Shown: piece after piece, positions 50,276 through 56,454 of the stretch
Layout of the letters: each line of letters begins with the position of its first letter
Numbering within the stretch: the stretch's first letter is position 1
NCBI GenBank assembly: GCA_964016885.1
Contig: OZ024740.1
Coordinates: 217,124,001 to 217,188,000, forward strand
Direction: 5' to 3'
Length of the DNA stretch: 64,000 nucleotides
From: Eledone cirrhosa
Lineage: Eukaryota
Notes under the pieces: model-generated
Databases searched by the model: none
What the model saw: only the letters and a program-made list of their open reading frames with translations
Told to the model about the DNA's origin: nothing
Position numbers and translations under genes: made by a program

Positions 50276-50397
50276 AATGCCGTGCGCCACAACCTTAGTC
50301 TTCACAAATGTTTTATGCGAGTTGAGAATGTTAAGGGGGCAGTTTGGACCGTCGACGAGGTAGAGTTCTACAAAAGGAGACCACAAAAACTCAGTGG
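50276..50397 (+). CDS. FoxP: FoxP forkhead C-terminal exon, variant A (canonical; [41 protein letters not shown])
   Basis: Acceptor ctctgcttag|AAT, donor GG|GTATGT, 122 nt, phase 0/2; near-identical to the canonical FOXP H3/wing peptide. Confidence 0.96.
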
Positions 50398-51368
50398 GTA
50401 TGTTTTTTTTTTGTTTGTTTGTTTGATTGTTGTCATGTTTTTTTTTCCAAAACTTTACCAAAAATCAAAAACTCACAAAAAATGAAAAGAAAAGAAAATG
50501 ATGAAAGAATTAATATATAACCTCTTTCTCTCTCTCTCACTTTTTTCTTTTATATATATATATATGTATATATATATATATTACATATATATATATATAT
50601 TTATTCCCTTTGTTAGATGTTGATGTGGTTGGCCAAGCTTTTGAAATCTGACCTTGTGGCAGAATATTTCCCTGGTTATCTATTTATTATTGTTTTTATT
50701 TTTTGTACCATTTTTTAATATAACTCAACCTCTGGAGGACAAAAAAAAAACCTTCTTAACTTCATTATATTATTTCAGTAAGTACAAAAAATAAAAGAAA
50801 AGAAATATTCAATGTACATTTAAAAAAATATAAATATTTAAATTTGTATTTTAAAGTTTAAATTTTCTAAAAATTATTTTTTTTCTTTTTATTATATATT
50901 TTGTGTATGTTTATATTTATGTGAATATGAAGATTTGCACATGTATGCTTTTATGTACGTGTGTGTGTGTGTCTGTGTGTGTATGCATGTGCATGTGCAC
51001 ATATATGTGTGTATGTGTGTGTGTTTGTACATAATATTTGTGAAAATATTTCTATGGATTGTTTTACATTTTAATTTCCTTCAAAGTAAAATATTTAGAA
51101 AATATTGTAAGATAATTTTTATATATTGCCTACATTTATTTTCTATTCTGGTAATTGTTGACAATAAATAACTCAACATTAGGAACTCTTTTAATCTTTA
51201 ATTGGTTCCAGCTGCTGGTTTGTGGTCACCTCTTTCTTTGTTGGTCTCTCGTGTTTACTGTTCTTAAATCTCTCAATCTTTCTCACAATTACTCCTATTA
51301 CAATCTTAACTCTCATTCACAAGATTGACTTAGTAATATGTATTATACTTTTGTTAATGGTTTTAGGG

Positions 51369-52082
51369 GACCATGTAGTTATTGGCAGATACAAACAGTC
51401 TGGTAGGTGACCATGTAGTTATGGGCAGATGCAAACAGTCTGGTAGGGGGCCATGTAGTTATGGGCAGAAGAAAACAGTCTGGTAGGTGGCCATGTAGTT
51501 ATGGGCAGATGCAAACAGTCTGGTAGGTGACCATGTAGTTATGGGCAGATGCAAACAGTCTGGTAGGTGACCATGTAGTTATGGGAAGATGCAAACAGTC
51601 TGGTAGGTTACCATGTAGTTATGGGCAGATACAAACAGTCTGGTATGTGACCATGTAGTTATGGGCAGATGCAAACAGTCTGGTAGGGGGCCATGTAGTT
51701 ATGGGCAGATGCAAACAGTCTGGTAGGTGGCCATGTAGTTATGGGCAGATGCAAACAGTCTGGTAGGTGGCCATGTAGTTATGGGCAGATACAATGTGAC
51801 AGGTGGCCATGTAGTTATGGGCAGATACACTGTGACAGGTGACCATGTAGTTATGGGCAGATACAAACAGTTTGATAGGTGACCATGTAGTTATGGGCAG
51901 ATACACTGTGACAGGTGACCATGTAGTTATGGGCAGATACACTGTGACAGGTGACCATGTAGTTATGGGCTGATACACTGTGACAGGTGACCATGTAGTT
52001 ATGGGCTGATACACTGTGACAGGTGGTCATGTAGTTATGGGCTGATACACTGTGACAGGTGACCATGTAGTTATGGGCAGAC
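51369..52082. repeat. Composite minisatellite: 40-bp units switching to 36-bp units
   Basis: CCATGTAGTTATGGGCAGAT core followed by GCAAACAGTCTGGTAGGTGA (40 bp) or ACACTGTGACAGGTGA (36 bp). Confidence 0.95.
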
Positions 52083-53676
52083 ACAAATTCTCCATAATAA
52101 TAAACTAAATAATAACAATGATATCATATAATTTAAATTACATTGATGATATAGTTCTGGTTTCTCACTGACTCATCTGTTGAATTATCAAATTTTTTAT
52201 GATTTTCAAAATTCAACAGTTGAACAGTGTCATTGACTCCATGCCTAGAGTGAATGTATGAACAGCAGTACAATATTATACTATAATAATTGTTTTTCTT
52301 TTTGTAAGGTTTCTCTAGCAATCGGTTGCTCAGTGATGCCTGTTAATTGGCCCCTGATCTCAGAGGCTCAATATATCATGTAGGATTCTGGCAGTGCTGG
52401 CGATGGTAGAAATTTGGGATCCCAAGGCTTTTGATGAATCATAAAGCATTTATGGACCATGCCTAGTGTCCCAATAATAATAATAATAATAATATCAATG
52501 ATAATAATAGATACAAAGATCTGGAAAAGCCCCCCCCCCCCCAAAAAAAAAAAATAATTGAAGTTTTAATCGGTACTCTTAGTTACATTGAGGATGGGAA
52601 AACTCTTAGGAGCCCCCAAAAAATAAACTCTCAATCAGCTGCAGTATATACAACTTATATAATAGCAATAGTATAATGTGTATCTATAATCCTGTGTCTT
52701 TTGAGAAGGAATTACTGATAAATACAGTAAGAGATACAAGAAGAATAACGACAGACTTTAAACATATAAAAATAATAATAATGAAAATTATTGTGTACAG
52801 TGCTCAGGTGCACTATAACTCATCAAATGTGCATGTATAATACATAGACGAATGTACAAAGGGGAACAGTATATGAGTCATGATATACACACAGACACAT
52901 GTGTGTGTGTGTGTGTGCATGACGGGGGAATATCAGGTGTGGTGTTGGTGAATTTCAAGAAGTATGGAAGTTGTGAAGGATGCAGAGTCCTGACAGCTAA
53001 CAACTGATGCAGGTAGTCTGGTCCATGCTTCAGCAACTCTGAGCGTGAAAAAATTGTTTCCGAAAGTTATTGTTTGAAAATAATTAGCCAGACATTCACA
53101 AAATAACACCTACACCTGTTATTCTGTGTATCTGATGCGCATGTAGCAAAATATCTTCACACATACTGACCCTTGAATTACATCTGGTTGCTATTTCTCT
53201 TCATCTTGGTTGGTGTCAGTGGTCTGGAGAGGCTGGCCAGGTTGAGGTGAAGTGAGATAAGTTTTTTCTTTAAAAAGGATGATAAACACAACAAATGCCA
53301 ATAATTAGTAAGGACAAAAGGCAAGCTAACCTCAGCAAGATTGGAACTCACAATGTAAAGGCTTGGAACAAATATTGCATGAAAGACATTTTGTCTTTGC
53401 CACCCTGAATAATAATTTCTCATATTGTTCTACAGCCATACATTTACAAGATATATCCAATCCAATATTGGGATTCATCTACAGGTCGTAAAAAAGACAA
53501 AATGAAATGTTCTAAGCCATTTAGTGCAAGACTCACTATATCTGCACTCATAATAGTTACTTTTAGAAGAAATATTTTTTCTTTAAAAGTAAATTCTCTG
53601 CTCTACTTATATATATATTGATCGCTCATTCAATTAATGTTTGACAGTATAAAGTAAAACAATTTATTAATATTAT

Positions 53677-53916: not shown

Positions 53917-55338
53917 ATATATATATATATTTCTTACCATTAATTTAGTCATGGTTACCTTATTAGTTGGACATTGATGTATAGTTTGGTGAACAAAAAT
54001 ATTTTCAATATGTATCAGCTTAAAAATTGAATAGATGTCTGTCAACAAGCTGGAGATAATATCTAAAAGATTTAATTATAAATGACTCAGTTACTATAAA
54101 CTACATTTAAAATTAGAGTTAAAATAAATTGTTAATGCATTAGCAATGTTTTGTTTCAATACTATACTGTACTATAGAATGTATCTATAGAGTTTTTATA
54201 ACAGGTTATGTATAAACAGATGTGAATATTATGTCTGTATATAAAATATCTTGATGGTCAGAAAATGTGAGATCAACTGGACTAGTTTCAGTCCTGTGTT
54301 TCATCACTGATTGAGAACTCTCTTCTTTCAGTCCTGTGTTTCATCACTGAATGAGAACTCTCTTCTTATGTTGAAATACCAACACAGGTATGAAATTAAT
54401 CTTCCCCTTTTCCTGTTCACAATATTTTATATAGAGAGCAGTGTTTACACTTGTCTGTACATATGTTGGCTACAAATCCAGAGATATATTTTATAGAGTT
54501 AAAATAATTTAGCACCTACCATTTTTCTTTAAAACTTTATTTCTGCATTATTTCTTAATATCCATGTGTGTCTTTCTCACTAATTATCATCAGGTGGATT
54601 AGTTACATATCTAGGTAATGAGAGAGAAAGACTGAAAGTTTCATGGTGAAATCTTAGTTTGTTTTAGAAATTGGAAAATATCTGGAAATGTATTTATTTT
54701 TCGTTTATTTCATGGGGTCAAAATTCTTTGTGACTTGAATACTGAGACAATTCCACTGCAACTGAGGTGCAGGGAATTGTCTCAGTAACAATGTTGCAGG
54801 GGGTCTAAACAAATATCTGGCACCATGTAATAAATGGTAAGTAATTATAACATTTTTTGTGTGATTTTTGAATGATTAAAATGAAGTTTTAACACAGTCT
54901 CAGATCAAATAATTTAACAAACAATTACAACTCTGAAATATCTGTAGATGTCTAAGCTTTCAATTGAATTTGTATCAGATTTCGTGTTTGGAAGCCAATA
55001 TGAGTGAGAGAGAAAGAGAAAAACATAGAGAAATTCCAACCATTTTTAGCATAAGCCATTGATGCTTTCTAATAATATAGAAACAGTTGTGGAGTCTATT
55101 TTGTGTTCATTTTATTTTTCAAATTTATTTTTTCTCAATGTGATCACTTTCTCACAGAATATAAAATCAATTGGCTTGATTATCTTAAAAGCATGACCAG
55201 TGAAAAACTTCTCTGCAGGCTGAAGACTTTTTCATAGGCTTGGCTACCATATCCCTCCACCTCTCTATAAACATTTTCTGCCCTGCTGCTAACGCCATCT
55301 GCTGTCTTCTTTCCCGTTTTTCTTCTCTTGCTGCACAG

Positions 55339-55496
55339 AATGCTATTCGCACCAATTTGTCCCTGCATAAATGTTTTGTAAGATATGAGGATGATTTTGG
55401 ATCGTTTTGGATGGTGGATGACTTTGAGTTCGTTAGGCGCCGCCATCTGACTCGAGGACGACCCCGAAAATATCACGAAAGTGAGACTGCTGCACA
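55339..55496 (+). CDS. FoxP: FoxP forkhead C-terminal exon, variant B ([47 protein letters not shown]...), mutually exclusive with variant A
   Basis: Branch point GCTAAC (~55288-55293), long pyrimidine tract, cacag|AAT phase 0. Candidate donors A|GTGAGA (after 55480) and CA|GTAAGC (after 55496); read-through stop TAA at 55498-55500. Peptide matches the insect FoxP isoform B / FOXP1 exon 18b type. Confidence 0.93.
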
Positions 55497-56454
55497 GTAA
55501 GCACTAACTGGTTCTTTTCTCTCCTCACAAACCAATTAATTCTCTACCATGTTTTTCCCCCACCAACATTTGCTGCCCCTGCTCTCTTTCATCACTTAAC
55601 AATGATGGCCTACCTAAAACTCTGATATCATAGTCTGATTACTTTTTTCTTTCCCATTTAGTCTCTTATTTCGTCTCACTCTCTCTGTTCCTATTTTGTA
55701 ACTGAACTTCAGTACCTTGTTGATATTTTTTCTATTTTACACCCCATCTTCAATACCTTGTTGATTGTCTTTCTATTTTAAAACTCATCTTCACTACCTT
55801 ATTAATCTTCTCTATCATTATTTTACAACTGAACTTCATTAATTTGCTGATCCTTCACGCTGTCTATTTTCTCCATACCCACACCTCTCTGCCTTCTAAA
55901 GGGTTCCTCTTCTCAAGAATTACTGATCCTTGAATCAAGATGACCAGTTATTTTAACAAATTGTTTTAGCAAGGAATTTGATAATTTTCATCATCTTCGT
56001 AGTATATTATTTAGTATATAGATATATTTCTTTTAGCAAGTGTCAAAAAACCCTCAGGAGATCTGAAAAGCGGAAGGTCTTTTCTTCTCTGAAGACCTTC
56101 TGCTGTCCAGCTCTTCCGAGAGTTTAACATTTACTAAAAAATAATGTGCAATAAATATAGATTCATAAATCAAAGTAATGGAGTTGATAAATTAACTAAA
56201 AATTATGGGACAGGCAGCAATTCATATTTTGTCTTCTCCTTCATAACAAGGAATTAAATAAAGATTTTGATGTAATGATTCCCACTCATTATAAATGGAC
56301 CAATTGCAGTGGTTCTAAGTAGATTTGTCAATAAGAAGCAGCGACCACTAGATTGATGCTGGAAAAAAAACAAAATGTCAACCTCACATACAAGCATTAC
56401 ACACACTGAGATATAATTACATACACACACTTTTTACTTGCATAACTAATTATT

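What the first reader, a model, noticed from the sequence alone, without database searches (positions are those of the whole stretch)
50276..55500. FoxP with two mutually exclusive DNA-recognition exons: a FOXP1-ES / insect isoform B type switch in a probable cephalopod
Seen: two phase-0 exons 5 kb apart encode alternative H3-wing halves of one forkhead domain, A ([28 protein letters not shown]) and B ([28 protein letters not shown]...RGRPRKY). B replaces the base-contacting His of the N-x-x-R-H-x-x-S motif with Thr. Joining A to B shifts frame and reaches TAA about 14 codons in, so double inclusion would be truncated or NMD-prone. Established: Drosophila and bee FoxP isoform B and mammalian FOXP1 exon 18b have this RTNLS...GSFW...RGRPRKY type, and 18b changes DNA-binding specificity in pluripotent cells. 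Inference: the duplicated exon predates the bilaterian split and a specificity switch operates in this lophotrochozoan. I cannot tell from the sequence whether it has been reported for this lineage.
Basis: partly seen in the sequence, partly recalled or inferred. Interest (0 to 1): 0.85.

Follow-up and report, generated by a model that had tools for sequence, protein, structure and literature searches.

The report
Octopus FoxP's ancient swappable DNA-binding exons
The FoxP gene of this likely octopus carries two alternative exons for the DNA-reading half of its protein, likely spliced one or the other and predicted to differ in DNA-target preference; the arrangement was published in 2011 as shared by bilaterian animals including molluscs, so it is real but ordinary.

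Summary
Exon A (50276-50397, 122 nt, His-type helix 3) and exon B (55339-55496, 158 nt, Thr-type) both have AG/GT ends and the same phases (0 to 2). They lie between a shared upstream exon ending at 26170 and a shared downstream exon 5.3 kb beyond the window. Either exon alone keeps the frame; both or neither gives a stop. A tree separates all A from all B exons across molluscs, arthropods and vertebrates (100/100) and rejects a lineage-specific duplication. A contig from a relative's run shows B spliced at both ends. B was not seen in the one RNA-like run of this organism. None of this is new: Santos et al. (PMC3002244) reported the pair, the His-to-Thr change, the A/B tree, the origin at the base of Bilateria and in silico presence in Mollusca. 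RefSeq already annotates both isoforms in Octopus bimaculoides and a chiton. The likeness to FOXP1-ES is partial: vertebrate B also replaces the helix-3 Asn with Gly, while this B keeps Asn, as in flies. Specificity, tissue use and regulation in cephalopods are untested. Already known; low interest.

The parts
15076..15381 (+). FoxP coding exon upstream of the forkhead (ends approximate)
   Evidence: tblastn of O. bimaculoides and O. vulgaris FoxP, 72-84% identity; sequence
20118..20237 (+). FoxP exon carrying the start of the forkhead domain (ends approximate)
   Evidence: tblastn 97.6% over 41 aa; motif scan
26069..26170 (+). Shared exon U: first half of the forkhead, ends in phase 0 with a GT donor
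   Evidence: one strong match in the genome, the only other at 48% identity; the last 23 nt before its final AG match the loose end of a spliced B contig at 21 of 23
50276..50397 (+). Alternative exon A (canonical His-type recognition helix and wing), 122 nt, phase 0 to 2
   Evidence: internal in a 2466-nt contig of run X19 with 0 differences and in contigs of X5 and X13; groups with A exons, 100/100
55339..55496 (+). Alternative exon B (Thr-type recognition helix, Asn kept, basic RGRPRK tail), 158 nt, phase 0 to 2
   Evidence: spliced to U and to the downstream exon in a contig of run X13, a relative; groups with B exons including vertebrate ones, 100/100
55239..55338 (+). Intron end before exon B with six YGCY motifs (possible MBNL sites; weak lead)
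   Evidence: 6 YGCY here against 0-1 before five other positions checked; 0 of 639 fixed 100-nt tiles reach 6; but local shuffle p = 0.42 and other animals' B introns have 0-3

Best explanation
This is the single FoxP gene of a likely octopod, and its exons A and B are the ancient bilaterian pair of duplicated forkhead exons, likely spliced one or the other between shared flanking exons to give two full-length proteins predicted to read DNA differently. Shown: exon ends, phases and frames; each exon alone is open into the downstream exon, while both or neither gives an early stop; A sits in spliced contigs; B is spliced at both ends in a relative; A and B belong to the pan-bilaterian A and B groups. 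Inferred: mis-spliced products are cleared by nonsense-mediated decay; A is the commoner form; isoform A binds the canonical forkhead motif; isoform B loses the His base contact but keeps the Asn, so it has altered or relaxed specificity like fly FoxP-B; the ratio is regulated by cell type, most plausibly in neurons.
For: Frames: U+A+C and U+B+C are open; U+A+B+C and U+C stop. Trees: A versus B split 99/100 (39 rows, 35 columns) and 100/100 (36 rows, 40 columns). Holding window A with window B is rejected at p-AU 1.4e-30, and six lophotrochozoan-type A+B rows at 7.7e-36. Window B matches window A at 21 of 35 aa, arthropod B at 32-33 and vertebrate B at 26-27. Annotated isoforms: the Octopus cluster has 4 A-type and 9 B-type of 13, the chiton cluster 3 and 5 of 8, none with both. 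Run X13 has separate short contigs for A (depth 18.8) and B (4.95); B's loose ends match exon U (21 of 23, against 7 of 23 for A's end) and the downstream exon (25 of 30, against 6 of 30 for genomic read-through). A lies upstream of B in 9 of 18 metagenome loci. Santos et al. modelled the His554-to-Thr loss of a base contact. FOXP1-ES binds a different motif by protein-binding microarray, as summarised in review PMC11701043.
Against: B was found in only 1 of 5 RNA-like runs laid over it, and not in X19, the run of the window's own organism (0 records). A depth of 9.9 for X19 in the B bin had no listed piece and was not reproduced. The libraries of these runs are not on record, and RNA is a guess. 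RefSeq XP isoforms are predicted models. No DNA-binding data for any invertebrate B form turned up in my six searches. The measured switch is for the vertebrate exon, which has an extra Asn-to-Gly change. The trees rest on 35-40 columns and have no non-bilaterian outgroup.
Confidence: 0.9

Rival explanations
1. Exon B is conserved but barely used in this species, a relic or very rare isoform with no regulated switch.
For: No B contig in the organism's own run X19, where A sits unbranched in a long contig; B absent in 4 of 5 RNA-like runs.
Against: B is intact with canonical splice sites and is identical to O. bimaculoides and O. vulgaris B over the first 45 aa. The two listed differences from relative X13 (55440, 55455) fall on third codon positions. 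Contigs drop rare variants, so absence is weak.
Confidence: 0.06
2. B acts mainly as an alternative last exon, as in Drosophila: read-through of its donor gives an immediate TAA and a protein without the shared C-terminus.
For: The donor overlaps an in-frame stop, CAG TAA at 55495-55500. In the fly the two exons are the last two of the gene (PMC7776582).
Against: The one B contig is spliced at 55496 onto the downstream exon. All 9 B-type Octopus and 5 B-type chiton models continue into the shared C-terminus.
Confidence: 0.05
3. A and B arose by a mollusc- or cephalopod-specific duplication and resemble fly B and exon 18b by convergence.
For: None found; A and B are tandem in one gene.
Against: AU tests reject it (p 1.4e-30 and 7.7e-36). 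A and B share only 62 of 105 nt. The published exon trees give the same split.
Confidence: 0.01

Closest known systems
Drosophila FoxP isoforms A and B (exons 7 and 8; CG16899/CG32937), Santos et al. PMC3002244
   Same: [quoted passage not shown]
   Different: In the fly they are the last two exons; here both are internal and splice to a shared downstream exon. The introns here are 24 kb and 4.9 kb.
Vertebrate FOXP1 exons 18/18b (FOXP1-ES; mouse 16/16b)
   Same: Internal one-or-the-other exons that keep the frame (review PMC11701043); Thr-type helix, GSF/YW wing and RGRPRK tail; same B group.
   Different: Vertebrate B also has Gly for the base-contacting Asn and matches at only 26-27 of 35 aa. 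ESC-specific inclusion, MBNL repression and the CGATACAA-type motif are shown in mammals only.
RefSeq FoxP isoforms of Octopus bimaculoides (XP_052822825.1 A-type, XP_052822827.1 B-type) and Liolophura sinensis (XP_064604869.1 A-type, XP_064604865.1 B-type)
   Same: Same two exons and the same junctions to the shared upstream and downstream exons.
   Different: Different species: one substitution in B's tail against O. bimaculoides, and 72-84% identity in the upstream exon. These are database models, not a published study.

Membership tests
FoxP subfamily | FoxP-type forkhead domain | tested here: met
   97-98% identity to octopus FoxP forkhead exons; all 7 solved-structure hits of exon B are FOXP1-4
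FoxP subfamily | C2H2 zinc finger and leucine zipper upstream of the forkhead | not tested
   No such motif in the window scan; these exons would lie upstream of the window and were not fetched. They are present in the octopus orthologue P0027 (PF16159).
Bilaterian FoxP/FoxP1 A/B exon pair (Santos et al.) | Two tandem homologous exons for the second half of the forkhead, A before B, after a shared phase-0 intron | tested here: met
Bilaterian FoxP/FoxP1 A/B exon pair (Santos et al.) | B groups with other species' B exons, not with its own gene's A | tested here: met
   100/100 split; AU p 1.4e-30
Bilaterian FoxP/FoxP1 A/B exon pair (Santos et al.) | His554 (FOXP2 numbering) replaced by Thr in B | tested here: met
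Bilaterian FoxP/FoxP1 A/B exon pair (Santos et al.) | Both isoforms are made, one exon at a time | tested here: inconclusive
   Met in relative X13 and in RefSeq models; in this organism's run only A was seen
FOXP1-ES in the strict sense | Asn550 replaced by Gly in addition to His-to-Thr | tested here: not met
   Window B starts with Asn; deer, tamarin, marmot and eel B start with Gly
FOXP1-ES in the strict sense | Changed DNA motif (CGATACAA-type) and pluripotent-cell-specific inclusion | not testable with these tools
   Needs PBM or SELEX and staged RNA-seq; mammalian facts from review PMC11701043
FOXP1-ES in the strict sense | Repression of the exon by MBNL through intronic sites | tested here: inconclusive
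   Six YGCY before B, but shuffle p = 0.42 and 0-3 in 16 other full-length B introns; YGCY as the MBNL motif is recalled

The most novel reading that the evidence does not exclude
Not only the exon pair but its control is ancestral: octopus exon B is repressed by Muscleblind through the YGCY cluster just upstream and is switched on in neural progenitors or a defined neuron class, rewiring FoxP targets in the cephalopod brain as FOXP1-ES does in mammalian stem cells.
Probability: 0.12. Interest if true: 0.55.

Novelty: already known. Interest (0 to 1): 0.12.

Why it matters
As a discovery it adds little: the exon pair and its age are published, and both octopus isoforms are in RefSeq. It does offer a clean test case. 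The cephalopod gene has the vertebrate-like internal layout with the fly-like B helix (Thr, Asn kept), so it could separate the effect of His-to-Thr from that of Asn-to-Gly on motif choice. It could also show whether isoform B marks particular neurons in a third large brain; fly isoform B is neuronal and linked to operant self-learning (PMC4070984, PMC7776582; passages).

Tried and rejected
RNA support in the window's own organism: X19 gave no record on exon B, nor did X8 or X17; X5 gave none. Contigs drop rare variants, so this shows neither use nor absence. MBNL/YGCY conservation: not supported in other animals. Lineage-specific duplication: rejected; the AU test did not run because identical rows collapsed. 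One search placed the downstream exon one base off and its frame lines are void; one search corrected this. A protein search to name the organisms behind the B-only loci found no close named match (best 91%, mosquitoes). The earlier-findings look-up showed nothing. Gabut et al. 2011 is not held; its results come from a review. Santos supplementary table S1, which names the mollusc species, could not be seen (one search listed only an index page), so whether a cephalopod is listed there is unknown. Six literature searches found no cephalopod-specific paper on the two isoforms; the O. vulgaris FoxP qPCR paper PMC2722649 has 0 occurrences of 'isoform' or 'splic'.

Full report
Observation. Exon A is 50276-50397 and exon B 55339-55496; both are bounded by AG and GT, are 122 and 158 nt long, start in phase 0 and end in phase 2. 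The shared upstream exon U is 26069-26170 and ends on a codon boundary. The shared downstream exon C (77 nt) lies outside the window at G000:C1:217193311, with two more coding matches at 217199513 and 217200052. Computed joins: U+A+C and U+B+C are open. U+A+B+C stops 14 codons past the A/B junction, 115 nt before the B/C junction, and U+C stops within C. By the recalled 50-55 nt rule both mis-spliced forms would be NMD targets; this is inference. A search of the genome with B finds only B and A, and one with U finds one strong match, so this looks like a single FoxP gene with one exon pair.

Identity. The forkhead exons are 97-98% identical to Octopus bimaculoides and O. vulgaris FoxP and the upstream exon 72-84%, in a 3.0-Gb assembly. 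I infer an octopod other than those two species. All 7 solved-structure hits of exon B are FOXP1-4.

Use of the exons. Among the 13 members of the Octopus protein cluster, 4 carry A and 9 carry B; among 8 chiton members, 3 carry A and 5 carry B; 0 of 21 carry both. These are predicted database models. I laid 6 of the 24 listed runs, all as assembled contigs. X20 behaves as DNA and runs through the introns. Exon A appears, without its upstream intron, inside longer contigs in 3 of 3 RNA-like runs laid over it, including X19, which has the window's organism code (2466 nt, 0 differences). Exon B appears in 1 of 5 RNA-like runs: X13, another organism, has a 213-nt contig whose loose ends match the end of U at 21 of 23 bases (A's end: 7 of 23) and the start of C at 25 of 30 (genomic read-through: 6 of 30). 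So U-B-C splicing is shown in a relative. It is not shown in this organism: X19 gave 0 records on B, and the depth of 9.9 in that bin had no listed piece. Contig depths (A 18.8, B 4.95 in X13) hint that B is the minor form but cannot measure it.

Age. Over 35 aligned residues, window B matches window A at 21, arthropod B at 32-33 and vertebrate B at 26-27; window A matches vertebrate A at 32-33. Trees from 23 and then 16 hand-picked proteins out of the search hits, plus the window (and four loci in the second tree), split A from B at 99/100 and 100/100. Forcing window A with window B is rejected at p-AU 1.4e-30. That the mammalian B rows are exon 18b is supported by the exon 18b guide sequence printed in PMC8189919, which by eye encodes the same wing residues.

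Prior art. Santos et al. (PMC3002244; I read part 2 of 6 of the text, section 19 and 12 passages) showed both isoforms by RT-PCR in fly and mouse, predicted them in silico in Arthropoda, Annelida and Mollusca, built A/B exon trees, placed the tandem duplication at the base of Bilateria and modelled the His554-to-Thr loss of a base contact. They also note that mouse B has a second change, Asn550 to Gly, with a stronger predicted effect. Their table S1 could not be seen. PMC8373072 (passages) lists FOXP1 among tandem exon substitutions shared by human and Drosophila. The FOXP1-ES motif change and stem-cell role come from a review (PMC11701043, passages); MBNL1 repression from PMC8189919 and PMC4978528 (passages). 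Gabut et al. 2011 itself was not held. Fly isoform B is neuronal, in about 65% of FoxP neurons, and the two exons are terminal there (PMC7776582, passages); it is tied to operant self-learning (PMC4070984, passages). Six searches found no cephalopod-specific report, in a library that lacks most subscription journals.

What it works like, and membership. It is a member of the bilaterian FoxP A/B exon pair: layout, tree position and His-to-Thr are met, while expression of B in this species is inconclusive. It is not FOXP1-ES in the strict sense, because the Asn-to-Gly change is absent and neither motif nor cell type is tested. It has the internal layout of vertebrate FOXP1 with the helix of fly isoform B. 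Most likely mechanism (0.9): regulated one-or-the-other splicing, backed by frame-dependent decay of errors, gives two full-length FoxP proteins whose recognition helices differ at one base-contacting residue.

Regulation lead. The 100 nt before B hold six YGCY motifs, against 0-1 at the five other positions checked; 0 of 639 fixed tiles of the window reach six (maximum five). However, a dinucleotide shuffle of that segment gives p = 0.42, and 16 full-length B introns from other animals have 0-3. MBNL control is therefore a weak lead only.

Verdict. Real, correctly read, already known; interest 0.12. The more unusual things seen were in other animals' loci: FoxP genes with B directly after U and no A, and a locus with a duplicated U exon (see Noticed in passing).

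Noticed in passing
L018:2726-3179, L020:896-1335, L021:2010-2442, L022:399-833, L023:4129-4554 (probably L019:1-232 too): FoxP genes in which exon U is followed by a B-type exon across a 58-136 nt GT-AG intron, with no A-type exon between or in the 0.5-4.9 kb held downstream (5 of 18 loci). 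They look like B-only FoxP genes, the reverse of the A-only paralogues described by Santos et al. Organisms unidentified; an A exon further downstream or in a paralogue is not excluded.
   Followed up: partly
L011:2818-2916 and L011:3306-3404: Two tandem U-type exons (first half of the forkhead, 76% and 70% identical to window U, both with AG/GT ends) upstream of an A/B pair, which could allow four forkhead variants in an unidentified animal. Splicing not checked.
   Followed up: partly
window 34554-46574: A 12-kb array of a 72-bp unit (167 copies, 95% matches) fills half of the intron between U and A and explains the GC-skew block; a 40-bp array (about 19 copies) lies at 51364-52087 between A and B.
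   Followed up: no
window 55495-55500: Exon B's donor overlaps an in-frame stop (CAG TAA), so an unspliced B would end the protein at once; B frames in L007, L009, L012 and L014 also end on Gln then stop.
   Followed up: partly
window 20118-20160: A 14-residue stretch at the start of this exon is present in the window; O. bimaculoides isoform pairs differ by 14 residues (983/969, 995/981), which suggests an alternative acceptor.
   Followed up: no
P0002-P0031 (protein database): Many gene models wrongly read A, the intron and B through in one protein (for example deer, tamarin, eel), which is why they top the search with exon B.
   Followed up: no
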